Shown here: positions 46,841 through 64,000 of the stretch, piece by piece
Position numbering within the stretch: position 1 is the first letter of the stretch
Layout: each line of letters starts with the position of its first letter
From: Pyrinomonadaceae bacterium
GTDB taxonomy: Bacteria > Acidobacteriota > Blastocatellia > Pyrinomonadales > Pyrinomonadaceae
NCBI GenBank assembly: GCA_046262835.1
Contig: JBHELZ010000004.1
Location: forward strand, 110,336-174,335
Direction: 5' to 3'
Length of the DNA: 64,000 nt
The notes under the pieces: model-generated
What the model was told of the DNA's origin: nothing
What the model saw: the letters and a program-made list of their open reading frames with translations, nothing else
Database searches by the model: none
Position numbers and translations under genes: made by a program

Positions 46841-47734
46841 TTGAAGAATATGGTTGCACCTTCGCTCCAACCAGCTCTGCCGTCTCCGCTTTCCACTTTT
46901 GATCGTCGGACTGCGCGACCGTTTCTGAAATGGGTGGGTGGCAAGCAACAACTCCTTACCCAGTTCGAGCCACTGTTTCCTGCCAAGTTTCGAAGATATT
47001 TTGAACCGTTCGCCGGTGGAGCGGCGGTTTTCTTTCACCTTTGGAATACGCGCCGGCTGCCCTCTGAAGCTTTTATATTTGACAATAATTCGGAACTCAT
47101 AAATGCGTACCTTGTAATAAGAGACAAAGTTGATGCACTTATTCTCGAGTTGTCGGTCCATCAAAAGCTTCATTCGAAGTCCTATTACTACAAGATTCGA
47201 GGGCTCGATCGAGATAAGACTCAACTTAGCGATGTACAAAGGGCGGCGCGTTCCGTTTATCTGAACCGGACTTGTTACAACGGATTATTTCGCGTGAATA
47301 GCAAGGGGCAATTTAATGTCCCGATGGGCAGCTACCTCAGCCCTCAAGTCTTGCTTGAGCCCGTTATAAGGGCGGCAAGCGGCGCACTGCAGGGCGTCAC
47401 GATTCAGCTAAGAGACTTTCATAGCATCCTTAGCCTTAGCCAGCCGGGCGATTTTTTTTATTTCGATCCTCCATATGATCCGCTAACGAAAACAGCAAGC
47501 TTTACCAGTTACACAGCTGAGAGTTTTAGCGAAGACGATCAACGGGAGCTTGCGAAGGTCGTAACTGCATTATCCGAACAAGGTGCCTACATCATGCTGA
47601 GCAACTCGAAGACTCCGCTTATTCTAGAATTGTATGAAAGGTTCCGCATCAATACTGTCCAAGCACGGCGTGCGGTGAATTCAGACGCAAATGGGAGGGG
47701 TCGCATTGAGGAGGTAGTGGTTTTGAATTACTAA
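46841..47734 (+). CDS. Dam-family (D12 class) N6-adenine DNA methyltransferase
   Basis: PFLKWVGGKQQLL, EPFAGGAAVFF (SAM motif), YLNRTCYNGLFRVNSKGQFNVP, FYFDPPY (DPPY catalytic motif). TTG at 46841 or ATG at 46850. Visibly AT-richer than its flanks. Confidence 0.85.
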   Translation: MKNMVAPSLQPALPSPLSTFDRRTARPFLKWVGGKQQLLTQFEPLFPAKFRRYFEPFAGGAAVFFHLWNTRRLPSEAFIFDNNSELINAYLVIRDKVDALILELSVHQKLHSKSYYYKIRGLDRDKTQLSDVQRAARSVYLNRTCYNGLFRVNSKGQFNVPMGSYLSPQVLLEPVIRAASGALQGVTIQLRDFHSILSLSQPGDFFYFDPPYDPLTKTASFTSYTAESFSEDDQRELAKVVTALSEQGAYIMLSNSKTPLILELYERFRINTVQARRAVNSDANGRGRIEEVVVLNY

Positions 47735-52596: not shown

Positions 52597-55587
52597 ATGG
52601 ACACCTCCAATTCGAACAAAGCAGAAGTCCCGACGACAGAGTCGAGCAAGATTTCCCGCGTCATCGCCGAAACCGCCTCGGACGCGATTATCACCATCGA
52701 CGAACACAGCACCATGTTATTCGCGAATGCTGCCACCGAAAGGATTTTCGGCTACGCACAAGCTGAACTGATCGGACAATCGCTGACAATGCTGATGCCC
52801 GAACATCTCAGGCAGCTTCATCGCTTTGGTCTTGCGCGATATCTCGCCACCGGACACCGCCACATAGATTGGCAGGCAGTTCCATTGACCGGGATCCGCA
52901 AGGACGGTTCCGAAGTACCGCTCGAGGTTTCATTTGGCGAATTCACTGAAGACGGCCGGCGTTTCTTTGCCGGTATCGCGCGCGACGTCACAGAGGGAAA
53001 GCAGGCCCAGGAATCCCTGAAACGCAACGAAGAGCGTTTTCGATCGCTGATAGAAAATGCCACAGATATTATTACCGTGCTCAATCGGGACGGGACCAGG
53101 CGTTACGTCAGTCCGTCGGTTCAGCGCTCGCTCGGTTACGAGCCTCAGGAGTTGATTGGAAAGAATCCATTTGACTTGGTGCACCCTGACGACGCGCCAG
53201 AGCTGCAGAAGTTGTTTGCCGCCGGACTGACCCATCCCGGCTATATAGTCAGCAAAGAGTTTCGCATTAAACATAAGGATGGATCATGGAAAACCCACGA
53301 AGCTACCGCGCACAACTTGCTGGATGATCCGGCCCTGGGGGGGATAGTCATAAATTCGCGTGACATTACTGCGCGCAACCGAATGGAACGCCGGTTGACG
53401 GTACAGTACGAAGCGGCACGCATTCTGGCGGCAGCCGAATCGCTCTGCAACGCGGCTCCCGAGCTCATGCAGGCAATGTGCGAGAGTCTGGGATGGGATC
53501 TGGGACAACTGTGGATCGCCGACCGCGAAACGAACAAATTGCGCTGGCTCGCAAGCTGGCAAGTAGATTCGCCGGGCGCAAACGATTTGGCTGCCGCTAG
53601 TCGCGGGCTCGTTTTCAGTCGCGGGATTGGGTTACCGGGGAGGATTTGGGCCCACGGGATGTCGCAGTGGATCCACGATATTGCTGAAGATTTCAATTTC
53701 CCGCGCCGTGAGACGGCTTTGCAGGCGGACCTGCATTCAGCGTTCGGATTTCCGATTAATTTGGGAGACGAGGTTTCCGGCGTGATGGAATTCTTCTCCC
53801 ACGAACTTCAATCGTCGGACCAGTCACTCCTTGATGTCATGACCGGCATTGGGAACCAGATCGGCCAATTCCTCGAGCGCGAGCGCGTCGAAGCAGAACG
53901 ATCGAAATTATATGAACGCGAACAGCGCGCGCGCCTCGAGCTTGAAGCAACAATGGAACGGATGCGCCAGGTGCAGAAAGTTACCGAGGTCGCCCTGGCC
54001 CATCTTTCACTTGACAAGTTGCTGGCCGAGCTTCTCGATCGAGTGCGCGATGCCGTGGACGTAGATACCGTGGTGATTATGCTGCTCGAAGAGAGCAACG
54101 AACTTGTCGCGTGGGCCACGAAGGGTCTGGAACTTGATGTCACGATCCACGTGCCGGTCGGCGCCGGTTTTGCCGGCCGGGTGGCGGAACGAAAAGCACC
54201 GATAGCAATCGACAACATTGAAGAGGCAGATCTGCACACGCCCTTCTTGCGCGAGCATGGCGTCAAGTCATTGCTCGGCGTCCCGCTCCTGCTTGAAGGG
54301 CGCGTGCTCGGTATCATTCACGTGGGCCGGCTGGCTCTTCGCCCATTTACTGATGCCGACACCCGACTCTTAGAGCTGGTCGCCTTCCGCGTCGCCCTGG
54401 CAATTGATAACGCGCGCCTGTTTGAAGAAGAGCGCGCTGCGCGACGTGATGCTGAAGCGGCAAGTCGCGCGAAGGACGAATTCTTAACCACTATTTCTCA
54501 TGAGCTGCGCACGCCGCTGACGCCGATCATTGGCTGGATTCATATGATCCGGAACGACCTCCTGCCACCGGAGGAAGCGGCGCACGGGCTGCAAATAATT
54601 GATAAGAATTCGCATGCGCTGAAGCGTTTGATAAACGATCTGCTCGATATGTCAGCGATTCTCAGCGGCAAGATGCGCATGGAGCAAAAACCGCTCCTGC
54701 TTGAGGAAGTGGTTCGTGAAGCCGTCGAAGTGGTTCGCACTGAATCGGCTACGAGGGAGGTCCGTCTTGAAATCACCGCGAGCAATTCCCATGACCCGGT
54801 CGTCACGGGTGACCGGTCGCGTCTGGTCCAGGCGTTTTCAAACGTGCTCGACAATGCGATTAAGTTTTCGCGGCCTGGCGGCCGGGTAAAGATTATTTGC
54901 CAAGATCAGGAAGATAAGGCCATTGTTCGCGTCGAAGATGAGGGCGAGGGCATCAGTTCCGAATTTTTGCCGTTCGTCTTTGAACGATTTCGACAAGAGG
55001 ATGGATCGAAGACCCGCGCCCATGGAGGTCTGGGGTTGGGTTTGGCGCTGGTTAAGAGTTTCGTTGAGGCGCATGACGGCGCTGTTGAGGCAGCTAGTGC
55101 CGGGCAAGGCCGCGGCAGCAGGTTCACGATCACACTGCCTCGCAGCGAAAGCGCCGCTGCGGTCTCATCGCAAACAGCTACTGACACCGGCGCGCGGGCG
55201 CTGCCGGCTCACCTGATGATTGTCGAAGACGATGCTGACACTTTAGAAATGCTGCGTACGACGTTAGAGGCAAAGGGGTTTAAAGTAACGACGTGCGAAT
55301 CGGGGGCCGAGGCGCTGAGTATCGCGCCGCACAAGTCGGTGGATCTGATTGTGTCGGACATCGGCATGCCTGAGATGGATGGCTTGGAAATGATCAGAAA
55401 ATTGCGGGAAATCGATGAGTACAAAGCGATCCCCGCAATTGCGCTCACCGGTTATGCTTCCAATCAGGACGCGAAGTCGGCCGTGGCCGCAGGCTTTAGT
55501 ACTCATATCTCGAAGCCCGTAGATCCGGCCGAGCTTTTGAAGATGATAAATCAATTAATTCAAAAAGGGTTGAGCAACCGCGAATGA
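52597..55587 (+). CDS. hybrid sensor histidine kinase (PAS-PAS-GAF-GAF-HisKA-HATPase-REC)
   Basis: 996 aa. H-box SHELRTPLTPI, N/G boxes DNAIKFS and GGLGLGLALV, C-terminal receiver MIVEDDADT...VSDIGMPEMDG...K. The PAS/GAF assignment comes from sequence patterns such as ITARNRMERRL linkers. Confidence 0.85.
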   Translation: MDTSNSNKAEVPTTESSKISRVIAETASDAIITIDEHSTMLFANAATERIFGYAQAELIGQSLTMLMPEHLRQLHRFGLARYLATGHRHIDWQAVPLTGIRKDGSEVPLEVSFGEFTEDGRRFFAGIARDVTEGKQAQESLKRNEERFRSLIENATDIITVLNRDGTRRYVSPSVQRSLGYEPQELIGKNPFDLVHPDDAPELQKLFAAGLTHPGYIVSKEFRIKHKDGSWKTHEATAHNLLDDPALGGIVINSRDITARNRMERRLTVQYEAARILAAAESLCNAAPELMQAMCESLGWDLGQLWIADRETNKLRWLASWQVDSPGANDLAAASRGLVFSRGIGLPGRIWAHGMSQWIHDIAEDFNFPRRETALQADLHSAFGFPINLGDEVSGVMEFFSHELQSSDQSLLDVMTGIGNQIGQFLERERVEAERSKLYEREQRARLELEATMERMRQVQKVTEVALAHLSLDKLLAELLDRVRDAVDVDTVVIMLLEESNELVAWATKGLELDVTIHVPVGAGFAGRVAERKAPIAIDNIEEADLHTPFLREHGVKSLLGVPLLLEGRVLGIIHVGRLALRPFTDADTRLLELVAFRVALAIDNARLFEEERAARRDAEAASRAKDEFLTTISHELRTPLTPIIGWIHMIRNDLLPPEEAAHGLQIIDKNSHALKRLINDLLDMSAILSGKMRMEQKPLLLEEVVREAVEVVRTESATREVRLEITASNSHDPVVTGDRSRLVQAFSNVLDNAIKFSRPGGRVKIICQDQEDKAIVRVEDEGEGISSEFLPFVFERFRQEDGSKTRAHGGLGLGLALVKSFVEAHDGAVEAASAGQGRGSRFTITLPRSESAAAVSSQTATDTGARALPAHLMIVEDDADTLEMLRTTLEAKGFKVTTCESGAEALSIAPHKSVDLIVSDIGMPEMDGLEMIRKLREIDEYKAIPAIALTGYASNQDAKSAVAAGFSTHISKPVDPAELLKMINQLIQKGLSNRE

Positions 55588-55590
55588 GTC

Positions 55591-57495
55591 TTACTTTACA
55601 ATCACCGGCAGGCGAACCGTAGGCGAGCCGCACAATCCAAACCACGAAACCCCTTCCTGCACCATATCTACCTCAAGTTGATAGTTGCCGCTACGCGTCG
55701 GCGCGTTAATCGTCAGCGAAACTGCGATCGTTTCACCGGGATGAACATCTGTCGTCAAGGGGGCGGTACCATCATCATTGACGACAGGCTTTCCCGCGTC
55801 ATCGAGCCAATGATTGCCGGCGGCAATCTGGAAAGGATCGGCGCTCCAATCACGACCGCGCCAGCTCACCTCGCTCGTATTCTTGATTGATACTTGTACC
55901 GTTGCCTGTTCGCCGGCGGACAACTGAAGCGGGGGATTTGCGACGCTGATCTCTGCGCGAAAGGCCGTTTCCGGAAGCGGGCCGCGCGCCCGTTCGGATC
56001 GCGCTGCGACATAAAGGCTGTAAGGCGGGGTCTCGGCCAGAATATTACAGTTTGAGCAAATGTCTTTGGTTGTGATCACCAGTGCATCGGTTGGTGGCTG
56101 CTCCTCAACCGTCAGATGAACGAAGTTGGATCGCGGAACGCTTTGAAGTGTCGCTTGCCAATAAGCCTGAATATAACCAGGGATGCCGTATGCGTCTGAA
56201 AGATAAATCGGGCGGCGTGCGTCGGCGAGCGCGGCCCTGAAGATTAAGTTTTGATATTCCGCGTCGAATACATGCAAGCGTCGACTTGAATCAGCGCTGG
56301 CCGCATACCGCTGCTGAAACGCTGCGCCCTGAACCAGCGTGGTCACGGCCAAAACGATTAGCAGCACACCTCGTTTCAGATGGCCGGCCAAAAACCAGGC
56401 AGCAGCCTGAGCGGACAGCACCAGCAGGAAAACCGGCACCGGCGAAAGATGGAGCATGTGAAAAGTCTCTTGAGTCAGCGACGCGGGAATGATTGATACT
56501 ACCAGCCCATAACAGATGAACAGCCACCATGGATCGCGATCTTTTCGCAGTACGAGGCACAGGCCGATAACTGCGGACAGTACCGTCGCCAGCAACATCA
56601 ACTCAGTGCCCTGGACATGTGCCATTTGGAAGTAATTCGGATCGCCCTTGATTAGCAACCGCCAGGGATTAATGTTGGCTGCATAGTGACGCAGAAAATC
56701 CCACGTCGACTGAGCGAGTGAGTTCTCTCGTTTCAAATAAGTAATCAGCGAAAATCGCGCCGTGAGTGCGCCCGGGTTTCTCAGATTGAAAACTGCCAGC
56801 GGCACGAGCGTGACGGCGTACACAGCCCACGCCGAAAGCACGCTCTTCCAGCCCGAGCGTCTCACAAAAAAGAGTAGTCCGAGGGCCAGCAACGGCGCCA
56901 GCAATCTTCCGATCGAATAGGTGTAGGTCAACATGGCGAGCGTTAGCGCGAGAGGCACGATTTCGCGCCAGGACCACTTGGATCGGATCGCCACCCGATG
57001 GGCGCAAAGCAGAAACAGCGAAAGCGCCAGCGGATAGATGCTGACTTCAAGAACGACTCGACTTAGCTCGAACAACCAGGGGGTTAGCAGTGCTGAAGCC
57101 ATTACGAACAAGCCGACGACCTGGCGGCCCGTCATGCGGAACGAAAGCAGGCCCAATACCAGCGCAGTCATCAATCCGCCGGCGACACTCAGCAATCTCG
57201 CGGCCAGGATGCCGGGCCCGGTCAAGCGAAAAATCCCAGCGAGGAGATAGATGTAAGTGGGGTTTTTGTACTCGCCGAACGCCCGGAAATAGAGCGGCCA
57301 TGGCTGATGGTATTCATCACGGCCCGTTTGCGAGATGAGGTAAGCATTGTAGGCAATTGATGATTCGTCAATGAAGAAACCGCGCGGGTTTGTGGTGACG
57401 TGACGCCCGTAAACAAACATGCCGCCAAGAATGACTACCGAAAAGGCGACAATCGCAAGCTTGCGATGAAGAAGACTGCGGCTGCGCGTTAGCAT
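55591..57495 (-). CDS. GT-C fold (family 39/83-like) membrane glycosyltransferase with C-terminal NBR1/Ig-like domain
   Basis: 634 aa. The first extracytoplasmic loop carries FIDESS (the DE motif of PMT/ArnT-like enzymes). About 12 TM helices. C-terminal ~100 aa ...IKNTSEVSW...GNHWLDDAGK...PGETIAVSLTINAPTRSGNYQLEVDMVQEGVSWFG... is shared with three other genes in the cluster. Confidence 0.65.
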   Translation of the reverse strand: MLTRSRSLLHRKLAIVAFSVVILGGMFVYGRHVTTNPRGFFIDESSIAYNAYLISQTGRDEYHQPWPLYFRAFGEYKNPTYIYLLAGIFRLTGPGILAARLLSVAGGLMTALVLGLLSFRMTGRQVVGLFVMASALLTPWLFELSRVVLEVSIYPLALSLFLLCAHRVAIRSKWSWREIVPLALTLAMLTYTYSIGRLLAPLLALGLLFFVRRSGWKSVLSAWAVYAVTLVPLAVFNLRNPGALTARFSLITYLKRENSLAQSTWDFLRHYAANINPWRLLIKGDPNYFQMAHVQGTELMLLATVLSAVIGLCLVLRKDRDPWWLFICYGLVVSIIPASLTQETFHMLHLSPVPVFLLVLSAQAAAWFLAGHLKRGVLLIVLAVTTLVQGAAFQQRYAASADSSRRLHVFDAEYQNLIFRAALADARRPIYLSDAYGIPGYIQAYWQATLQSVPRSNFVHLTVEEQPPTDALVITTKDICSNCNILAETPPYSLYVAARSERARGPLPETAFRAEISVANPPLQLSAGEQATVQVSIKNTSEVSWRGRDWSADPFQIAAGNHWLDDAGKPVVNDDGTAPLTTDVHPGETIAVSLTINAPTRSGNYQLEVDMVQEGVSWFGLCGSPTVRLPVIVK

Positions 57496-57597
57496 CGTGA
57501 ATATAACGTTGAGAGGAGGCCTACCTGCCCCGCTTTTCGCCTTAGCCGATTTCGGCGCGGCGTAGGCCGTCGCTGAACATTCGATAGCAGTCGGAGA

Positions 57598-59397
57598 TTA
57601 GTGATCGTCTTCCCGAAACAGATAAATCGATCCGCCGAACACCGCTTCCGGCGTCCGATAGCGGTATTTAGCAAACCGGTTCACGCGCTCAGACTCAGTG
57701 GCCGGACGTCCTTCACTAGTTGAGAATGGCGGCACAGTCGAGCCATTAAGATAACTCGCGCCGATGGCCACGTAACGCGTCTGCTCGTGTGATTCACCAG
57801 CTTCGATCAGTGGCTGAACGCCGTAATGATGCAGGATAATGAAATCTCCCAGGAAGTGGGCCCGGACTCGCGTCTCACCGCGCGCCCGCAGGTAGGCCGC
57901 GAGCGTTGAAATGTCGTCGCCCCATTCGACATTCGAATCCGACAAGTACCACCAATGCGGGTGGCGCGAAGCCAGTTGATTCATGTAGCTCATGTGATTG
58001 GGAAACGCGCGCACCGCCTCGATTCCGATCCAGGACATCAACGCAATAGCGACGAATAATCCCACCCGGGCAAGTCTCCGCGACTTCAGCAAGTGCGCGA
58101 GCAATGCTCCGCCCATTATGAAAAGGAAGGTATACGCCGGGAGATAGTAACGCACGCCTATGTCGATATGGCTGAACAAAACGAAAACCGTATAGACCCA
58201 AAAGGGCACCAGCATCCAGAGATAGCTTCTGTCGCGGTTCGTCCTCACCCGAAACGTGCCCCACGCCACCGCTACCAGCGACAAGGTTAAAAATGGAATC
58301 GTCGTCTTCAGCGTGAACGCAACTGGAAAGTAATACCACCAGCCGGTCCGGCTATACATGCCGAGGAAACCTGCCGGATGTCCCTGCGCGTTGTGCCAAA
58401 TCTGATGCAGGATGCCGAGAACGAAATCGACAGGGACAACATGCGACAGCAGGCCGGTTAGCAGGGTGAGCGTGCCGCTGCCTTTCGGAAATGTCTCCTG
58501 AATCCATTGCACATCCCCCGACGCAAGGGGTCGATGCTGAAAAAAGTATGCGGCGTTAATTGTGACGAGTGAGACAAAGGCCACGATCGCGAGACGAGCG
58601 GAGCCTCTGGTCCAGCTTTTTCCTTGTTTGACCGCTTGCGAGATCTCAAAAGCGAAGTACATCGCGATGACCGGCCCGACCAGCAACATTGAAAACTTCG
58701 TGAGCACCGCCAGGGCCCCTGCGAATCCCAGCCATGCGGCTCGCTTGACCGATCGCTCGAGCACGTATCGTCGCAGCATGAAGAAGAATAAAAGAAAACC
58801 GAAAGCAGCAGGCATGTCCGTTTGCACCACGCGACCATGCGCGAGCACGGTAGGCTCCAGCGCAAAGAGGGTCACCGCCAGCATGGCCGCAAGCCGACCA
58901 AACAAATCGCGGGCAAATCGAAAGATGAGCAACCCCGATGCTACGGCAAGGCCGATCATGCAGACCCGCGGCCAGAACGACAGCGATAAAAACTTGTCGG
59001 GATTGTTCTCCCAGAACCTCTCTTCGTAAGCCCATTTTTCCTCGCCCGATCCCGGCGCAGCTTTGATTTGTTCCGGCAGAATCTCGGCCGGCTGAAGAAA
59101 CAGGAGAGGAAGCGCGGCGATAATTTTTGAGAAAGGCGGGTGCTCGTGAACGAGTTCCGCGTTCCCAGCGGCCACATGGTAGTACCCGGACGGAATCATC
59201 ACGATCTCGTCGACGGTGATGCTCTTGCGTGAAATTACCACGAGCATCTGGACCGCCATCAGAGTTAACGCCAGACCGCATCCGATCTCAGCCGCATGCG
59301 CAAGAATCCATGCGCGCATTACCGTCCAGGCACGCCGCACATCGAACTGAATGTTGCCCTTATCCGCAGCTGAAATCTGATTCAGTGGTTCGCCCAT
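57598..59397 (-). CDS. GT-C fold (family 39/ArnT-like) membrane glycosyltransferase
   Basis: 599 aa. SITVDEIVMIPSGYY (DE motif) after the first TM, then many TM helices. Lacks the shared C-terminal domain. Confidence 0.7.
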   Translation of the reverse strand: MGEPLNQISAADKGNIQFDVRRAWTVMRAWILAHAAEIGCGLALTLMAVQMLVVISRKSITVDEIVMIPSGYYHVAAGNAELVHEHPPFSKIIAALPLLFLQPAEILPEQIKAAPGSGEEKWAYEERFWENNPDKFLSLSFWPRVCMIGLAVASGLLIFRFARDLFGRLAAMLAVTLFALEPTVLAHGRVVQTDMPAAFGFLLFFFMLRRYVLERSVKRAAWLGFAGALAVLTKFSMLLVGPVIAMYFAFEISQAVKQGKSWTRGSARLAIVAFVSLVTINAAYFFQHRPLASGDVQWIQETFPKGSGTLTLLTGLLSHVVPVDFVLGILHQIWHNAQGHPAGFLGMYSRTGWWYYFPVAFTLKTTIPFLTLSLVAVAWGTFRVRTNRDRSYLWMLVPFWVYTVFVLFSHIDIGVRYYLPAYTFLFIMGGALLAHLLKSRRLARVGLFVAIALMSWIGIEAVRAFPNHMSYMNQLASRHPHWWYLSDSNVEWGDDISTLAAYLRARGETRVRAHFLGDFIILHHYGVQPLIEAGESHEQTRYVAIGASYLNGSTVPPFSTSEGRPATESERVNRFAKYRYRTPEAVFGGSIYLFREDDH

Positions 59398-59542
59398 CTA
59401 ACGGAACTTTCGGAAGTATCTAACCTTCAACTGTTGTGCGAAATCCCCCTTCTCTCCTTCTCACCGTGAATATTCGTCAGTAAGCTTGTCGCGGAAGCAT
59501 CCGAGGAGGCGCACGAAATCTCAAATCAGGTCACTAATGAAT

Positions 59543-60679
59543 TTACTTAACCACGATTTGATGCTTCAAAACCTGGGAACCCAGGTCCTCGAACCAGGCC
59601 AGATGTTCGGAGACCATATCAAACTCGAGCGAATAGTTGCCGGCTGAGTCAGGCGCACGCAGGACGATCTCGACCTCCACTGTTTCATTCGGCCGCACGT
59701 CATGCGGTAGAAAAGCGCCCGCGTGATACCAGGAGACTGGTTGGTCGTTTTGGTCGAGCAGATGCGCCACTAAATGGACGTCGCCCTTCTCGGCAACACC
59801 CTCGCTCCCGCGTAGCCAGCGCGCATAACCACTATTGTGAAGACGCACGCGAAAGCGCAACTCATCGTTTGGGTGACACGAGGATGGCCCACTGACCAGA
59901 GCCAGTTTCGATTCCAGGTAGCTAATCGCGCGACTGTCGGGATACGGCGCGCGCTTGCGACATTGAAAAACTGCGCGATCGCTTTGCACGCTGGGAAATA
60001 CTTTCACGTCGTCGAACCCGACATTCCGGAGCAAGGCTGAAAGCGCGGCTGGTCCCGGCAGAAACCAGTTAAAAACGGCTTCCTTCGCGTCGGGTAGGTT
60101 CTCGATATACGCGAGCGGATGAAGTGTTGACTGCGCGCCGCCTTCGGCATAGACGAAGGATTCGGGGGCTTTCTCTGGCGGGTAGATCGCAGTTTCCAAA
60201 ACCAGTAAGTCGCGCGTCAGCAGAAACAACTTTTCGAGCGCCAGCACCAGATGCTTGCAGTGATAGATCAAACCGAGCGCGAGCGTGACATCGAATTGAC
60301 CAAGCTCAAATGGATCGAGATCGTAAACGGACATGCGCCGGTACTGGATCTCCAGCCCGACCATCTGGCGAACAAACATCGCCTGACGAATTAAGTCGCG
60401 CTGTGAATCGATTCCGACAACGCGCGTGGCGCCGCGTCGTTTCATTTCGATTGAATAGAACCCGGCGTTGCAACCGACGTCCAACACGGATTTGCCGGAA
60501 AGATCATCGGGAAGACAGACTCTGACTTTTTCCCAGGTCGGGCGAGGATGCTCGACCGGCTCGCCAATCGCGCTCTTGCTCTTGGTAACCAGGCCGTCAC
60601 CCAGATCAATGCAATGGAACCACGGATCGAGGCGTCGTACTTCTGCGGCGATGTCCGCACGCGTCATCATTTTTTCCAA
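59543..60679 (-). CDS. SAM-dependent methyltransferase (DUF1698/CmoB-like) fused to NBR1/Ig-like domain
   Basis: 378 aa. WFHCIDLGDGLVT, VLDVGCNAGFYS (motif I). C-terminal ...LHNSGYARW...PNETVEVEIVLRAPDSAGNYSLEFDMVSEHLAWFED.... Confidence 0.7.
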   Translation of the reverse strand: MEKMMTRADIAAEVRRLDPWFHCIDLGDGLVTKSKSAIGEPVEHPRPTWEKVRVCLPDDLSGKSVLDVGCNAGFYSIEMKRRGATRVVGIDSQRDLIRQAMFVRQMVGLEIQYRRMSVYDLDPFELGQFDVTLALGLIYHCKHLVLALEKLFLLTRDLLVLETAIYPPEKAPESFVYAEGGAQSTLHPLAYIENLPDAKEAVFNWFLPGPAALSALLRNVGFDDVKVFPSVQSDRAVFQCRKRAPYPDSRAISYLESKLALVSGPSSCHPNDELRFRVRLHNSGYARWLRGSEGVAEKGDVHLVAHLLDQNDQPVSWYHAGAFLPHDVRPNETVEVEIVLRAPDSAGNYSLEFDMVSEHLAWFEDLGSQVLKHQIVVK

Positions 60680-60812
60680 CTCGGATCAGTATTCGGACCG
60701 ATTACGACCGTGACTGGAGCTCAAGCGTCCTCGCTTGCATCGTAACTCAGAGAGCACCGAGACGGTTGCCCTCCAGTCGTTGCGACCCAATCCGCTCCTG
60801 GTACTAACGCGA

Positions 60813-61349
60813 TCACTTTACTATCGTGATCTTTGTCTTTGCGGTGGGCGAACCCTTGTCGCTGAACCAGGCCACCTGTTCCTGAACCAGATCTACTTCC
60901 AGGGTGTAATCGCCGGGTTCTTTTGGCGCCGTTATCAGAAGCGGGACTTCCGTCTCTTCTCCTGGCGCCAGGTCTTTGGGAATTCCGTAACGACCATCCA
61001 TGTTAGTGAGCAGTGAGCCATCTGGCTTGAGCCAGCGATTGCCCGCGGCAAGGTAGAACTTATTATCTGAGCGCGTGTTTATTTGTGCGCCGCGTGACCA
61101 CCACATTACGTCGCTGCCGTTTCTGATTTTAAGGCGAATGGTTTCTTTTTGGCCCGCGCGCAGCTTTGGCGGCACGTCCAGTAAGGTGATGTCGGCTTTG
61201 AATGCGTTATCAGGTAAGGCTGATGGAACGTCGGCCTGCGGGCGAGTCGCGCTCTGAACTTTCGCGGACGGTGGCGGCGCCGGGCGACATCCCCCCAGGC
61301 ACACCAGAACGAAAGCCGAAAAAATGATCGCAAAAATGGTCGTTCTCAT
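60813..61349 (-). CDS. lipoprotein consisting mainly of one NBR1/Ig-like domain
   Basis: ATG 61349 preceded by gggagg. Signal/lipobox FVLVCLGGC. ...IRNGSDVMW...GNRWLKPDGS...PGEETEVPLLITAPKEPGDYTLEVDLVQEQVAWFSD.... Confidence 0.6.
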   Translation of the reverse strand: MRTTIFAIIFSAFVLVCLGGCRPAPPPSAKVQSATRPQADVPSALPDNAFKADITLLDVPPKLRAGQKETIRLKIRNGSDVMWWSRGAQINTRSDNKFYLAAGNRWLKPDGSLLTNMDGRYGIPKDLAPGEETEVPLLITAPKEPGDYTLEVDLVQEQVAWFSDKGSPTAKTKITIVK

Positions 61350-61388
61350 TGTGACTTCGCCTCCCTGGCAAATAAAAGTGTTCAATAC

Positions 61389-63683
61389 TTACTGTACTCG
61401 AATTTTCAGGTTCAGCACCTCTGAACCCCGGTCGCCAAACCAGGCGACGCCTTCTTGTATCGCATCAACTTGAAGAATGTAAATTCCCGGCTCGTTGGGC
61501 GCCGTTATTTGCAAAGGTAATTCGGCTGTGCCGCCGGGCGGCAGGTCATCGAACAGCACTGCGCGTCCATCAAGGTCGTTTAGCTTTTCGCCATTCTGTT
61601 TCAACCACCGATCGCCTACTGTCATCTGAAACTGCCACGTTGCTTGCCGGCCGGGCCAGGTGACATCACTTTCATTCTTAAGGACGACGCGGATCTCATG
61701 CTCCTGTCCGACGTGCAAGATGGACGGAACGCTGACAACAGAGAGTCTCGCCTTGAACGCGCTATCCGCCAAAGCTGTCCCCTTCTCCACGTCGTGTTTG
61801 GTAGACGTATTTTGCGATCCTTTCGGTGAGACTTCGACAAGCAGCAGGTCAAATGTCGAGGAACCCGAAAAATAATGGACTGTCACCGGATGAGGATTTC
61901 CGGCCGCCAAACCGCGCGCGGCAAGCTCGTTTCGCGCTTGTTCGAAATTTTCGCGATCCGCAAAAGTGAACATTCGCTTGGCCTCGTGCGACCGTAGAAC
62001 GTCGGCCGCCTGTTTCCGAGCCAAACTACCGGCGAAATATTCCGGCATGCGGACTCCGACCGCCGGGAGAGTGGGCTTTAGCAAGGCTTCAATCGCTGAA
62101 GTCTTGTACGTGGTTTCGATCCAAACGTCCACGTCTGCGAAAAGCGCGCGATCTTCAGGCGCGAGGTATGCAGCTAACGACCGATCGCGCAGCAGGTTCC
62201 GAGACTCGTTCAGGACCACGGACCTCCGCTGTGCAAAGATAGTCGGGCGCGCACTCCACTCCCAGCGATAGCCACAACTCAGGGCCACGACGGCATGCAC
62301 GAACAACAGGAACGACAGCGGCGCGCAAGTCAAAAACTTCCCCCACAAGCCGAATGCACGGGACCTTCTCCGCGCATAAACCACGAGCCATACCAGAAGA
62401 ATGCCGCTCGTCAATTCGAGGTACAGCGCATAACGAATATAGCCGCTACTGGCGCTCCAGAGAACACCAGCGGATAACGTTATGAATGCCATTTGCCAAA
62501 TCTGGCGGTCGCGACGAGCAAGAACAATCAAAATCGCAGCCGCAACGAATCCTATTGATAACCGTCCAGAATAGAACCCGTACTCGCTCAGGCGCCACGG
62601 CCGAAACAACATAATCACGGGCCACCCCAGCGTCTCGACGATGCCGTACGGCCCCCAACGCGGATCGAAGAGTATGCCTTGCGGCCAATAAGGCGATTTA
62701 AATAACCCGTTGTAGAGCGGAAAAACCGGATTGCCTGTCAAGCGGTAGATGAAGACCGTGAACGGTAAGAGTGGCAAAGCGGATGCCAGCAGGGCAATGG
62801 GCCCAATTTTTAATAGTCGTCGAATTGAGCTTGTGCGATCGCCGGATAAGCCTCTGGCAATGACGTTGAAGATGTAAACCAAAACTATGGGGACCGCAAA
62901 AAGAAGATTCGCTAATTTAAAAGCAGCTGCGGCGCCCAGCAGCAACGCCAACTGGATCGTGCGCCGGGCTATGGTTTCGCCATCCGTCTTCTTGATGGCG
63001 ACGAACGTCGCCTCAAGCAACAACGGCAGGGCGAGCAGATCGACCATGTAATTGTTGATCTGAAATAAAAGCTGTTCGGTCGTCAGCACAAACAGGATTA
63101 CCGCGCAGCGCAGCCATGGAGACCGCACCCAATCTCGCAGTAAGCGATTGACAATCGTTCCGGTCCAAATTAAAGCCAGGTAATTGACGATCGTTCCCAG
63201 TCTGTATCCCAGGGCGTGCCGGTAAAGACCGGTAAGAATATCGGGGGTTGGATTGAACGGTGCGGGCGTTGGGAAAAAATCTCTCGGCAACAGCAATGGA
63301 CCTCGCAACGCGCGTTCGCCATGAAAGATGTGATAGTTCAGGACATCGAACGAGAGATCGGGAAATGGCAGGCGAATTAGATAAAAGAAGAGCAGTACTC
63401 CGGCCACGACAATCCAGAACTGTCGCGGCACTTTTTGTGATTCGGCTTCGGCTAAAGACAGGTAGAAAAGCCAGGCGACACTCGAGGCAGTCAGAGTGAG
63501 AATCCAGGCTACAGGCCGGCCAGGAAGCGCGCAGAAATACTGCCAGAGGATTGCTACGACATACGGAGCGATCACCACTGAGCCAAAATCTAATCGCTTC
63601 AGAAGAAATCCAGGCTGAAAGATGTGCAAACGATCTCGATGGCTATTCATCGGCGGTGCGTGGGGAATGGGCGCGAAACTCAT
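61389..63683 (-). CDS. large polytopic membrane protein (probable GT-C-like glycosyltransferase) with C-terminal NBR1/Ig-like domain
   Basis: 764 aa, at least 12 TM helices. C-terminal ...LKNESDVTW...GDRWLKQNGE...PGGTAELPLQITAPNEPGIYILQVDAIQEGVAWFGD.... An alternative start at ATG 63650 would overlap the upstream stop by 8 nt. Confidence 0.6.
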   Translation of the reverse strand: MSFAPIPHAPPMNSHRDRLHIFQPGFLLKRLDFGSVVIAPYVVAILWQYFCALPGRPVAWILTLTASSVAWLFYLSLAEAESQKVPRQFWIVVAGVLLFFYLIRLPFPDLSFDVLNYHIFHGERALRGPLLLPRDFFPTPAPFNPTPDILTGLYRHALGYRLGTIVNYLALIWTGTIVNRLLRDWVRSPWLRCAVILFVLTTEQLLFQINNYMVDLLALPLLLEATFVAIKKTDGETIARRTIQLALLLGAAAAFKLANLLFAVPIVLVYIFNVIARGLSGDRTSSIRRLLKIGPIALLASALPLLPFTVFIYRLTGNPVFPLYNGLFKSPYWPQGILFDPRWGPYGIVETLGWPVIMLFRPWRLSEYGFYSGRLSIGFVAAAILIVLARRDRQIWQMAFITLSAGVLWSASSGYIRYALYLELTSGILLVWLVVYARRRSRAFGLWGKFLTCAPLSFLLFVHAVVALSCGYRWEWSARPTIFAQRRSVVLNESRNLLRDRSLAAYLAPEDRALFADVDVWIETTYKTSAIEALLKPTLPAVGVRMPEYFAGSLARKQAADVLRSHEAKRMFTFADRENFEQARNELAARGLAAGNPHPVTVHYFSGSSTFDLLLVEVSPKGSQNTSTKHDVEKGTALADSAFKARLSVVSVPSILHVGQEHEIRVVLKNESDVTWPGRQATWQFQMTVGDRWLKQNGEKLNDLDGRAVLFDDLPPGGTAELPLQITAPNEPGIYILQVDAIQEGVAWFGDRGSEVLNLKIRVQ

Positions 63684-64000
63684 CGCCCAAAAGTTGAATT
63701 TGATATTCGAATTCCTGTGAGCGCCGCGCTATCGAATGAAGCACCAGCCCAACCGCCACTGACAGCAAACCGCACAAGAAAAGTGTGAGCGCAAGCAACC
63801 CCAACATTGGCCGCGCCAGCGCGCCGCGCTTGATAAATTCGAGCAGCACTGTTAACCCTGCCAACAGCGCCATAATCAGCAACACGAGTCCGGTCGAACC
63901 GAAAAATGTTAAGGGCTTGTAATCGCGAAACAACGCCAGAATCGTATTCAGGATCAGCACGCCGTCGCGCCAGAATTTGATCTTCGAACGACTGCCTTCA
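63643..64000 (-). CDS. family 2 glycosyltransferase, polyprenyl-phosphate sugar synthase type (C-terminal part, 5' end outside the window)
   Basis: The frame stays open to the window edge. ...SKIKFWRDGVLILNTILALFRDYKPLTFFG followed by two TM helices is the typical C-terminus of DPM1/ArnC/GtrB-like GT2 enzymes. Confidence 0.6.
   Translation of the reverse strand, partial: EGSRSKIKFWRDGVLILNTILALFRDYKPLTFFGSTGLVLLIMALLAGLTVLLEFIKRGALARPMLGLLALTLFLCGLLSVAVGLVLHSIARRSQEFEYQIQLLGDEFRAHSPRTADE

What the first reader, a model, noticed from the sequence alone, without database searches (positions are those of the whole stretch)
55591..63683. The same ~100-aa Ig-like (NBR1-type) domain terminates four functionally different genes in one cluster
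The C-termini of a GT-C glycosyltransferase (55591-55900), a SAM methyltransferase (59543-59850), a small lipoprotein (60813-61130) and a second large membrane protein (61389-61700) align by eye. The shared pattern is F(K/R)A.(I/L)S....P..L..G(Q/E)...(I/V).V.(I/L)(K/R)N.S(D/E)V.W ... GN(H/R)WL...G ... PGE(T/E)..(V/L).L.I.AP..(P/S)G.Y.L(E/Q)VD(M/L/A)(V/I)QE.VAWF.D.GS. This resembles the NBR1 FW / CARDB-like beta-sandwich. Enzymes of different chemistry sharing one targeting or binding module in one operon suggests a common substrate or scaffold, such as a cell-surface glycan or glycoprotein. Alternatively it may be a module that assembles them into one complex.
Basis: seen in the sequence. Interest (0 to 1): 0.65.

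Follow-up and report, generated by a model that had tools for sequence, protein, structure and literature searches.

The report
Shared NBR1-type domain in glycosylation cluster
Four neighbouring genes of a soil acidobacterium (two membrane glycosyltransferases, a methyltransferase and a lipoprotein) all end in the same conserved NBR1-type Ig-like domain, which probably holds these enzymes on a shared cell-envelope sugar polymer, though what it binds has not been tested.

Summary
Four of five consecutive minus-strand genes (55591-63683) end in a homologous domain of about 125 aa. Pairwise BLASTP gives E 1e-11 to 1e-30 at 30-44% identity. There is no DNA-level similarity and no other copy in the 64 kb window.

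The domain is a divergent bacterial member of the FW / N_BRCA1_IG (PF16158) superfamily:
- Pfam hits all four copies.
- The AF2 model (pLDDT 93.5) has human NBR1 FW (4OLE) as its best PDB match.
- A 40-sequence profile hits 4OLE at E 8e-8.
- Only one of the four signature tryptophans is kept, and the eukaryotic di-glycine pocket is not conserved.

The "second large membrane protein" has a GT-C fold (best matches AftA, ArnT, PglB). The hosts are therefore two GT-C enzymes, one SAM methyltransferase and one lipoprotein.

The cluster, with its FW tails, is conserved in about 50 Pyrinomonadaceae species. Most also have a cytoplasmic GT4-methyltransferase-FW protein. FW therefore sits on both sides of the membrane. 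In the MP764 orthologues it is as conserved as the catalytic core.

The nearest outside relatives are mostly methyltransferase-FW fusions. More distant ones are fused to amidases, LtaS-like transferases and peptidases.

Best reading, not shown: a non-catalytic ligand-binding module for a shared envelope glycan. It is a new variant of a known domain family, of moderate interest.

The parts
55591..57495 (-). 634-aa GT-C-type (PMT_2-like) membrane glycosyltransferase with a C-terminal FW domain. About 11 TM segments, an acidic IDES motif in the first periplasmic loop, and a 240-aa periplasmic tail.
   Evidence: Pfam PMT_2 E 1.5e-4 (below the gathering score) and PF16158 E 2.6e-4. TM and Lys/Arg loop table. 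The orthologue in L001 hits PMT_2 at E 3.3e-5.
55591..55968 (-). FW (NBR1-type) Ig-like domain, copy 1 (residues ~510-634 of the 634-aa protein). Predicted periplasmic.
   Evidence: This copy is present in orthologues in L003, L054 and L010 but absent from L001, L002, L012, L015, L021 and L064.
57598..59397 (-). 599-aa PMT-family GT-C glycosyltransferase WITHOUT the FW domain.
   Evidence: Pfam PMT_2 E 8.4e-10 and PMT E 2.3e-9. No FW hit.
59543..60679 (-). 378-aa class I SAM methyltransferase (TIGR04290/CmoB-like core, residues 10-229) with a C-terminal FW domain. No TM segment or signal peptide, so predicted cytoplasmic.
   Evidence: Pfam Methyltransf_9 E 3.4e-17 and PF16158 E 1.8e-6 (28.9 bits, cutoff 28). 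TIGR04290 E 3.9e-47, below its cutoff. No hydrophobic segment.
59543..59920 (-). FW domain, copy 2 (residues ~254-378 of the methyltransferase). The most divergent copy; predicted cytoplasmic.
60813..61385 (-). Small lipoprotein. The likely true start is Met13 at 61349, giving 178 aa. It has a signal peptide, an LGGC lipobox, a Pro/Ser-rich linker and an FW domain.
   Evidence: Sequence. The Cys is nearly invariant in 81 orthologues. The database form is 178 aa. Hydrophobic segment at residues 15-33.
60813..61202 (-). FW domain, copy 3 (residues ~62-190 of the lipoprotein). Periplasmic.
   Evidence: AF2 model with pLDDT 93.5: all-beta (eight strand segments, one short helix). Foldseek top hit 4OLE.
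61389..63683 (-). 764-aa (annotated 753-aa) membrane protein with a GT-C fold: about 13 TM segments, a conserved acidic first periplasmic loop (invariant D113, E123), a periplasmic alpha/beta domain and a C-terminal FW domain. It has no Pfam or NCBIfam family.
   Evidence: AF2 model with pLDDT 87.5. Foldseek hits AftA 8if8, ArnT 5f15/5ezm, ALG12 and PglB. No Pfam or NCBIfam catalytic hit. Invariant columns.
61389..61766 (-). FW domain, copy 4 (residues ~640-764). Predicted periplasmic.
   Evidence: Mean pairwise identity among 57 orthologues is 52.9%, against 51.5% for the TM core.
63643..64000 (-). 3' end of a GT2 polyprenyl-phosphate glycosyltransferase gene (GtrB/AglJ-like, with two C-terminal TM segments). 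The gene is cut by the window end and is the first gene of the co-directional block.
   Evidence: NCBIfam AglJ C-terminus E 3.4e-5. Two TM segments. Full-length GT2 at the same position in relatives.

Best explanation
The block 55591-64000 is the downstream half of a conserved Pyrinomonadaceae (Acidobacteriota) cell-envelope glycosylation cluster. A GT2 enzyme makes a polyprenyl-phosphate sugar. Several GT-C enzymes then transfer sugars on the periplasmic face, and SAM methyltransferases act on the cytoplasmic face.

Four of the proteins in the window end in an old paralogous FW-type (NBR1-like) beta-sandwich domain. In relatives a GT4-methyltransferase fusion carries a fifth copy.

Shown:
- The copies are homologous, and their fold and superfamily are established.
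- The domain is conserved in about 50 species.
- In the MP764 orthologues it is as conserved as the catalytic core.

Inferred:
- FW sits on both sides of the membrane. This rests on predicted topology.
- FW acts as a non-catalytic ligand-binding module, CBM-like in role. It keeps each enzyme, and the lipoprotein, on the same glycopolymer or lipid-linked glycan.
- The cytoplasmic copies engage the nascent or lipid-linked chain that is being methylated or extended.
- The periplasmic copies engage the chain after flipping, while GT-C enzymes decorate it. The lipoprotein may hold or hand it over.
For: Homology and significance.

FW superfamily and fold.

Pathway context:
- GT2 fragment.
- PMT/PMT_2 GT-C enzymes.
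- GT-C fold of the 764-aa protein.
- YfhO and a further GT-C-like gene upstream in relatives.

Conservation across species:
- The arrangement GT2 - GT-C(FW) - lipoprotein(FW) - [GT4-MT-FW] - MT(FW) occurs in most of the 78 genome loci.
- Each copy forms its own orthologous group, at 72-82% identity to its best match of the same class (53% for the four GT-C 634 copies).
- FW is as conserved as the TM core in the 764-aa family: 52.9% against 51.5%, and 43% for the neighbouring periplasmic domain.

Concentration in the cluster: there are no copies in the other 56 kb of the window. All 229 FW-bearing ORFs in 1.26 Mb of related loci are cluster-type genes.

Family-wide association with envelope and glycan enzymes:
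- Of the 10 outside proteins scanned that carry the FW domains nearest to the window copies, 7 are class I methyltransferase + FW fusions and one is GT4 + FW.
- Others are fused to N-acetylmuramoyl-L-alanine amidase, LtaS/EptA-type sulfatase-fold transferases, M6 peptidase, and F5/8-type-C domains. In such enzymes, non-catalytic repeats usually bind the wall polymer (general knowledge).

Polar residues enriched in the cluster copies: D89 at 95-100% against 48% outside, E87, and G102-S103.
Against: - No binding data exist for any bacterial FW domain in the literature searched.
- The only experimentally defined FW function is protein recognition (PMC9233695).
- The methyltransferase and GT4-MT copies are no closer to the periplasmic copies (32-38%) than to outside FW domains (40-42%). 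Their nearest outside relatives are also a different set. The two compartments may therefore use different ligands.
- Fold matches to known CBMs (8wae, Wzt 8dl0) are weaker than to NBR1 and are generic beta-sandwich similarity.
- The GT-C 634 orthologues often lack the domain, and a few 764-aa orthologues do too. It is therefore dispensable for at least some hosts.
- The topology rests on a hydropathy scan, the positive-inside rule and AF2 helices, not on a dedicated predictor or an experiment.
Confidence: 0.4

Rival explanations
1. FW is a protein-protein docking module, as in eukaryotic NBR1. It recruits partner proteins or their termini and assembles two separate enzyme complexes. One is cytoplasmic (methyltransferase, GT4-MT). 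The other is periplasmic (GT-C enzymes plus the lipoprotein as adaptor).
For: - The only solved FW-ligand complex is protein-protein: CtNbr1 FW binding Ams1, plus MAP1B/TAX1BP1 binding by human NBR1 (PMC9233695, PMC3357945).
- The copies belong to the FW superfamily.
- A lipoprotein consisting only of a linker plus FW looks like an adaptor.
- The periplasmic copies are each other's closest paralogues.
Against: - The eukaryotic N-terminal di-glycine pocket is not conserved. F651, D654 and W672 map to aliphatic residues, the D658-bearing insert is missing, and the last strand, where W763 would be expected, has no Trp in any copy (sequences).
- Some orthologues lose FW from one GT-C while the lipoprotein and the others keep it.
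- Tandem arrays of up to 14 copies on amidases, peptidases and LtaS-like enzymes look more like polymer-binding repeats.
Confidence: 0.25
2. Two unrelated uses of a promiscuous domain. The periplasmic copies (two GT-C enzymes and the lipoprotein) and the cytoplasmic copies (methyltransferase, GT4-MT) were recruited independently and bind different things. Their co-occurrence in one cluster then only reflects the general tendency of this FW subfamily to be fused to envelope-biosynthesis enzymes.
For: - The methyltransferase copy is only about 30% identical to the others.
- Class-specific columns differ: S20, R27-G28, G-N-R-W-L and D54-G-R in periplasmic copies against G20, G34, H94 and E99 in cytoplasmic ones.
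- The nearest outside relatives fall into two different sets.
- The family is large, with 11,098 50%-identity clusters.
Against: - The nearest outside relatives of the periplasmic-type copies are also TM-less methyltransferase-FW fusions (P0202, P0191, P0209). The split therefore does not follow the compartment cleanly.
- All classes share cluster-enriched residues: D89, G102-S103.
- The combination is stably inherited together across about 50 species.
Confidence: 0.2
3. FW is a passive structural or stabilising appendage. It would be an Ig-like cap that aids folding or solubility, like the fn3-like C-terminal domain of GH3 glucosidases, with no specific ligand.
For: - Foldseek also matches the C-terminal beta-sandwich of GH3 enzymes and CARDB.
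- The domain is absent from several GT-C 634 orthologues without loss of the gene.
Against: - In the MP764 orthologues, conservation equals that of the catalytic core and exceeds that of the adjacent periplasmic domain.
- A stand-alone lipoprotein made only of this domain is conserved in all loci.
- Conserved polar surface-type residues are present.
Confidence: 0.1

Closest known systems
FW (four-tryptophan) / N_BRCA1_IG domain, Pfam PF16158, of NBR1 and ILRUN. Structures 4OLE, 6VHI, 7VQO.
   Same: - Same superfamily by profile search (E 8e-8, 6e-5 and 2e-3) and by Pfam.
- Same Ig-like beta-sandwich; NBR1 FW is the best PDB fold match.
- C-terminal placement, as noted for bacterial FW proteins (PMC3357945).
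   Different: - Only one of the four signature Trp residues is kept; other Trp residues lie elsewhere (GN[RH]W, AWF).
- The di-glycine/N-terminal peptide pocket of CtNbr1 is not conserved.
- The hosts are glycosyltransferases, methyltransferases and a lipoprotein, not autophagy receptors or XRE regulators.
- Several copies are periplasmic.
Non-catalytic carbohydrate-binding modules on GT-C enzymes and O-antigen machinery. Examples: the C-terminal CBM of mycobacterial EmbC/AftD, and the Wzt C-terminal CBM working with the WbdD methyltransferase (own knowledge; Wzt seen as 8dl0_C).
   Same: - A beta-sandwich appended to the C-terminus of polysaccharide-assembly proteins.
- A methyltransferase and a glycan-recognition module in one pathway.
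- A periplasmic C-terminal position on GT-C enzymes.
   Different: - No sequence relationship to a CAZy CBM family was shown.
- No ABC transporter lies in the sequence seen.
- Carbohydrate binding is untested.
- Here the same domain is on up to five different proteins and on both sides of the membrane.
Three-component extracytoplasmic glycosylation systems: GtrB/CsbB-type GT2 + flippase + GT-C such as GtrV, YfhO, ArnT or PMT (own knowledge).
   Same: - A GT2 with C-terminal TM helices directly upstream.
- PMT/PMT_2 and ArnT/AftA-like GT-C enzymes.
- YfhO next door in relatives.
   Different: - An unusually large number of GT-C-type genes: three in the window and up to five in relatives.
- Added methyltransferases.
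- No GtrA-type flippase identified in the part seen.
- FW tails are not a feature of the described systems.
CARDB (PF07705) and other bacterial Ig-like accessory domains.
   Same: - Similar fold: 2kl6/3idu, TM about 0.6 normalised to the target.
- Relatives of the window's domain give overlapping weak CARDB hits.
   Different: Pfam and profile searches place the window copies with PF16158, not CARDB.

Membership tests
FW / N_BRCA1_IG (PF16158) superfamily | Significant sequence-profile match to the family | tested here: met
   Pfam hits all four copies (E 1.8e-6 to 1.2e-3). Only the methyltransferase copy passes the gathering score, 28.9 against 28 bits. A profile of 40 relatives that includes the four copies hits human NBR1 FW 4OLE at E 8.2e-8, ILRUN at 6.1e-5 and CtNbr1 at 2.1e-3. 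Close relatives score up to 220 bits on PF16158.
FW / N_BRCA1_IG (PF16158) superfamily | Ig-like beta-sandwich fold like NBR1 or ILRUN FW | tested here: met
   The AF2 model of the lipoprotein domain has pLDDT 93.5 and is all-beta. Foldseek PDB ranks 1-3 are 4OLE chains, at E 8e-6 to 2e-5 and TM 0.47-0.59.
FW / N_BRCA1_IG (PF16158) superfamily | Four signature tryptophans | tested here: not met
   Mapping is through the HMMER alignments to 4OLE and 7VQO. Only the G..W tryptophan (W24 of the domain profile) is kept. The W672 position is L or V in all four copies. The WRL position is V or F. The last strand has no Trp (sequences).
FW / N_BRCA1_IG (PF16158) superfamily | Conserved N-terminal di-glycine/peptide pocket (CtNbr1 F651, D654, D658, W672, W763; PMC9233695) | tested here: not met
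   F651 maps to I or L. D654 maps to L, A or V. The D658-bearing 'DG' insert is absent. W672 maps to L or V. The W763 region lay outside the alignment, but no copy has a Trp in its last strand.
GT-C glycosyltransferases (hosts of copies 1 and 4) | GT-C fold: multi-TM core matching solved GT-C enzymes | tested here: met
   For the 764-aa protein, Foldseek hits AftA 8if8 (E 1.2e-6), ArnT 5f15 (2.8e-6, TMt 0.56), ALG12, PglB and STT3. The 634-aa protein has only a sub-threshold PMT_2 hit and its structure was not predicted.
GT-C glycosyltransferases (hosts of copies 1 and 4) | Conserved acidic residue(s) in the first extracytoplasmic loop | tested here: met
   In the 764-aa family, D113 and E123 are invariant and D109 is nearly invariant in the loop after TM3. 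The 634-aa protein has FFIDESS in loop 31-100. The catalytic role is inferred.
GT-C glycosyltransferases (hosts of copies 1 and 4) | Sequence-level relationship among the cluster's GT-C proteins | tested here: inconclusive
   hhalign of orthologue alignments gives 30% probability for 599 vs 634, 77% for 599 vs the upstream 856-aa protein, and 4% or less for the 764-aa family vs all others.
Carbohydrate-binding module (functional class) | Demonstrated or family-inferred carbohydrate binding | not testable with these tools
   Only generic fold similarity was found: the porphyran-binding CBM 8wae (E 9e-4) and the Wzt CBM 8dl0_C (E 3e-4). No CAZy CBM profile library was available.
Three-component GT2 / flippase / GT-C glycosylation system | Polyprenyl-phosphate GT2 adjacent to GT-C transferase(s) | tested here: met
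   The GT2 C-terminal fragment at 63643-64000 matches the AglJ C-terminus. Relatives have a full-length Glycos_transf_2 at the same position.
Three-component GT2 / flippase / GT-C glycosylation system | GtrA-type or other flippase in the cluster | not tested
   None is evident among the five genes in the window. The upstream part of the cluster lies beyond coordinate 64000 and was not searched for flippases in the related loci.
Bacterial lipoprotein (host of copy 3) | Signal peptide with lipobox Cys | tested here: met
   The sequence reads MRTTIFAIIFSAFVLVCLGG-C. The Cys column is at least 90% conserved in 81 sequences. No dedicated predictor was run.

The most novel reading that the evidence does not exclude
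Bacterial FW domains are an unrecognised family of glycan-binding (or lipid-linked-glycan-binding) modules. In this cluster they mark every enzyme that must stay on one polymer, on both faces of the membrane. Together they would form a domain-coded assembly line in which the same recognition fold follows the substrate from cytoplasmic methylation and GT4 extension to periplasmic GT-C decoration and lipoprotein hand-over. The eukaryotic NBR1 cargo-binding FW domain, which binds a mannosidase in fungi, would then descend from an envelope-glycan reader.
Probability: 0.15. Interest if true: 0.7.

Novelty: new variant of a known kind. Interest (0 to 1): 0.45.

Why it matters
FW is the signature domain of the autophagy receptor NBR1. 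Its bacterial relatives are numerous: about 11,000 clusters at 50% identity match this profile. None has a known function.

This cluster gives a clean, conserved natural experiment. The same domain is fused to enzymes of one envelope-glycosylation pathway, plus a stand-alone lipoprotein version that could be expressed directly for binding and structural studies.

If FW proves to be a glycan reader, three things follow. It adds a new binding-module family. It helps annotate thousands of methyltransferase-, amidase- and LtaS-type fusions. It also points to how Acidobacteria, abundant but poorly studied soil bacteria, build their envelope polymers.

The work also flags a GT-C-fold family that has no Pfam or NCBIfam model.

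Tried and rejected
- **Recent duplication or gene conversion as the source of similarity: rejected.** The four tails share no DNA similarity beyond short patches (best is 71% over 86 nt). Each copy has its own orthologues at 72-82% identity in other species.
- **Sorting or secretion signal such as a T9SS C-terminal domain: rejected.** The domain sits on polytopic membrane proteins and on TM-less SAM enzymes.
- **phmmer of the 764-aa protein against PDB sequences:** no hit. Only the fold search identified it.
- **hhalign among the cluster's GT-C-like families:** mostly insignificant.
- **The four-sequence profile against PDB:** only a marginal ILRUN hit at E 0.26. A broader alignment was needed.
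- **Promoter and terminator scan of 55000-64000:** no excess over shuffles, so uninformative.
- **Exact-sequence look-up of the window's lipoprotein to extend the contig beyond 64000:** not on record.
- **Cluster-member look-up of outside FW proteins:** gave no organism names.
- **Literature searches** for bacterial FW with glycosyltransferases, PF16158 and 'NBR1-Ig-like': nothing on bacterial function.
- **A clean cytoplasmic-type versus periplasmic-type split of FW:** only partly supported. The nearest relatives of the periplasmic copies are also TM-less methyltransferase fusions.

Full report
**1. What is in the sequence**

The region holds five co-directional minus-strand genes. They are preceded by the cut 3' end of a sixth gene at 63643-64000. 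Gaps between genes range from an 8-nt overlap to 145 nt.

From upstream to downstream:
- A GT2 fragment. Its C-terminus resembles the polyprenyl-phosphate glycosyltransferase AglJ and has two TM helices.
- A 764-aa polytopic membrane protein.
- A 190-aa protein. The database form is 178 aa, starting MRTTIF..., with a signal peptide and an LGGC lipobox.
- A 378-aa class I SAM methyltransferase. It hits Methyltransf_9 at E 3e-17 and is TIGR04290-like. It has no hydrophobic segment.
- A 599-aa PMT-family GT-C enzyme (PMT_2 E 8e-10).
- A 634-aa PMT_2-like GT-C enzyme (E 1.5e-4, sub-threshold).

The last gene's stop codon lies 3 nt from the stop of a convergent hybrid histidine kinase.

**2.

The C-terminal ~115-125 residues of the 634-, 378-, 190- and 764-aa proteins align with 17 invariant columns.

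Pairwise BLASTP E-values range from 6e-30 to 1.7e-11 at 30-44% identity. The 599-aa protein has no such tail. An HMM of the four copies finds nothing else in a six-frame translation of the 64-kb window.

The DNA of the tails is not similar, so these are old paralogues and not recent copies.

The methyltransferase copy is the outlier.

**3. What the domain is**

- Pfam PF16158 (N_BRCA1_IG) hits all four copies. One is above the curated threshold.
- An AF2 model of the lipoprotein domain, built from 81 sequences, is confident (pLDDT 93.5). It is an all-beta sandwich (eight strand segments, one short helix).
- Its best PDB matches are the three chains of human NBR1 FW (4OLE, E 8e-6 to 2e-5). Behind them come generic Ig-like, CARDB and fn3-like domains and some CBMs.
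- A four-sequence profile barely touched ILRUN.
- A 40-sequence profile that includes the four copies and outside relatives hits 4OLE at E 8e-8, ILRUN at 6e-5 and the CtNbr1 FW construct at 2e-3.

The copies are nevertheless a divergent bacterial branch. I mapped them through the printed alignments onto the residues described for CtNbr1 (PMC9233695):
- Only one of the four signature tryptophans is kept.
- The di-glycine pocket residues F651, D654 and W672 are aliphatic in all four copies.
- The D658-bearing insert is missing.
- No copy has a Trp in the last strand.

The one experimentally defined FW binding mode therefore cannot simply be transferred.

**4. The second large membrane protein**

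This protein has no Pfam, NCBIfam or PDB-sequence hit.

With 57 orthologues, AF2 gives a confident model (pLDDT 87.5). Its best PDB matches are AftA, ArnT, ALG12, PglB and STT3, so it has a GT-C fold.

AF2 helices combined with the Lys/Arg content of the loops give about 13 TM segments with the N-terminus inside. The conserved acidic loop (invariant D113 and E123) lies outside. The whole C-terminal region, including FW, also lies outside, as in solved GT-C enzymes.

The same positive-inside reasoning puts the tail of the 634-aa enzyme in the periplasm.

The four hosts are therefore two GT-C enzymes, one methyltransferase and one lipoprotein. That makes three classes, not four.

**5.

The methyltransferase has no export signal and needs SAM, so its FW copy is cytoplasmic. 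The lipoprotein copy and the GT-C copies are periplasmic.

One physical complex held together by these domains is therefore excluded. A common ligand must be something present on both faces.

**6. Comparative genomics**

The protein hits come from Pyrinomonadaceae. A scan of species-representative genomes returned 78 loci. Almost all are Pyrinomonadaceae or Blastocatellia, with a few Verrucomicrobiota.

A six-frame HMM map shows a conserved core in about 50 species: GT2 - GT-C(FW) - lipoprotein(FW) - MT(FW).

Most loci also have a ~900-aa gene between the lipoprotein and the methyltransferase. It encodes GT4 (Glycos_transf_1) + class I methyltransferase + FW and has no TM segment. That makes a fifth host, and a cytoplasmic one.

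In the window's own clade (L001-L003, L054):
- This gene is not in that position.
- In L003 its C-terminal part lies about 8 kb upstream, beyond the YfhO and 856-aa genes.
- The source genome therefore probably has a fifth copy just outside the window.

Domain presence varies:
- The 634-aa GT-C carries FW in the window, L003, L054 and L010, but not in L001, L002, L012, L015, L021 or L064.
- A few 764-aa orthologues lack it (L051, L053, L071, L073).

All 229 FW-bearing ORFs in 1.26 Mb of loci belong to these cluster gene classes. This includes three initially unclassified ORFs that proved to be methyltransferase-FW genes or fragments. Together with the empty 56 kb of the window, this argues against the 'ubiquitous domain' refutation. 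No whole genome could be scanned, so the point is not closed.

**7. Evolution of the copies**

Each copy is its own orthologous group: mean identity to the best same-class match is 72-82% (53% for the four GT-C 634 copies). Between classes identity is 32-52%.

The three periplasmic copies are closest to one another (44-52%). The methyltransferase and GT4-MT copies are no closer to them than to outside FW domains.

Column analysis shows:
- Family-wide fold positions: N18, G20, W24, P65-G66, A77-P78, G82, Y84, W97-F98.
- Positions enriched in all cluster classes: D89 at 95-100% against 48% outside, G102-S103, and E87.
- Positions that separate periplasmic from cytoplasmic copies.

In the 764-aa family FW is as conserved as the TM core (52.9% against 51.5%). 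It is more conserved than the adjacent periplasmic domain (43%). This argues against a passive appendage.

**8. The wider family**

The four-copy profile finds 11,098 clusters at 50% identity with E<=1e-3, and 4,012 at E<=1e-10. Many proteins carry 2-14 tandem copies.

Sampled architectures:
- M6 peptidase, N-acetylmuramoyl-L-alanine amidase and PD40 propellers.
- Signal peptide + 4 FW + 5-6 TM + sulfatase-fold, i.e. LtaS/EptA-type transferases.
- Amidase + F5/8-type-C.

Of the 10 outside proteins scanned that carry the FW domains nearest to the window copies, 7 are TM-less class I methyltransferase + 2-3 FW fusions and one is GT4 + FW. Methyltransferase fusions make up only 11 of the 150 top representatives.

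Bacterial FW is therefore an accessory module of cell-envelope enzymes. The subfamily seen here is tied to methyltransferases and glycosyltransferases beyond this cluster.

**9. Literature**

Marchbank et al. [quoted passage not shown]

Zhang et al. 2022 (PMC9233695) defined protein recognition by CtNbr1 FW.

Searches for bacterial FW in glycosylation, PF16158 and 'NBR1-Ig-like' found no functional work on bacterial members.

**10. Mechanism**

Shown:
- Homology of the copies, their fold and their superfamily.
- Conservation across about 50 species.
- The pathway context.

Inferred:
- The placement of FW on both sides of the membrane. This rests on predicted topology.
- The most economical reading is that FW is a non-catalytic binding module. 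It would keep each protein on the pathway's glycopolymer or lipid-linked glycan: cytoplasmic copies before flipping and periplasmic copies after it. The lipoprotein would act as a holder or adaptor.

I give this about 0.4.

Rivals:
- Protein-protein docking in two separate complexes: 0.25.
- Independent recruitment with different ligands: 0.2.
- Passive structural cap: 0.1.

None of these can be separated further without binding experiments.

**11. Verdict**

The functional inference is reasonable. It is unproven and needs the two-compartment amendment.

This is a new variant or context of a known domain family and not a new kind of system, so interest is moderate. It offers a very tractable entry point (a 178-aa lipoprotein) to the unknown function of bacterial FW domains.

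Noticed in passing
window 61389-63683 (-): The 764-aa protein belongs to a GT-C-fold family with no Pfam, NCBIfam or PDB-sequence match. Every named hit in the searches is called 'hypothetical protein' or 'NBR1-Ig-like'. The family seems restricted to Pyrinomonadaceae/Blastocatellia plus a few Verrucomicrobiota (L052, L065, L073). It is a candidate new GT-C family, with invariant D113, E123 and a conserved TGNPVFPLYNG...PRWGP loop.
   Followed up: partly
L010:12906-15551, L015:12919-15600, L022:13510-16278; fragment at L003:2-1489: Most related loci carry a ~900-aa TM-less fusion of GT4 glycosyltransferase + class I SAM methyltransferase + FW between the lipoprotein and the methyltransferase gene. 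In the window's closest relative it lies about 8 kb upstream, so the source genome probably has a fifth FW gene just beyond coordinate 64000.
   Followed up: partly
window 52597-55587 (+): A 996-aa hybrid histidine kinase (PAS/GAF sensor region, HisKA-HATPase, receiver) converges on the cluster, with only 3 nt between the two stop codons. A GAF-HisKA-receiver kinase sits at the same position in L001-L003 and L054. It is a possible regulator of the cluster.
   Followed up: no
L001:695-6298 and the equivalent in most loci (upstream of window coordinate 64000): Divergently transcribed upstream genes are conserved with the cluster. They are a YfhO-family GT-C protein (~990 aa), a ~860-aa protein with no Pfam hit that shows weak profile similarity to the PMT-like 599-aa enzyme (hhalign probability 77%), and a small methyltransferase. 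The full cluster may therefore hold five GT-C-type enzymes.
   Followed up: partly
proteins P0204, P0249 and about 15 similar ones, not in the window: A recurrent architecture elsewhere is signal peptide + four FW domains + 5-6 TM + sulfatase-fold domain (LtaS/EptA-like lipid-headgroup transferases). This is another envelope-polymer enzyme class that uses FW arrays.
   Followed up: partly
window 60813-61385 and 61389-63683: The mechanical ORF starts are probably too long. Database forms start at Met13 (lipoprotein, 178 aa, coordinate 61349) and Met12 (GT-C, 753 aa, coordinate 63650). The latter gives an 8-nt overlap with the GT2 stop, which suggests translational coupling.
   Followed up: partly
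window 46841-47734 (+): A D12-class (Dam-like) N6-adenine DNA methyltransferase gene sits inside a run of lysine/diaminopimelate biosynthesis genes (aspartokinase, M20 peptidase, DapA, DapD-like, aminotransferases, Asd). No restriction partner was noticed.
   Followed up: no
L019:16894-17817 (-): One relative has an extra, different methyltransferase-like protein with a C-terminal FW domain at the edge of the locus. This is a further example of the methyltransferase-FW pairing.
   Followed up: no
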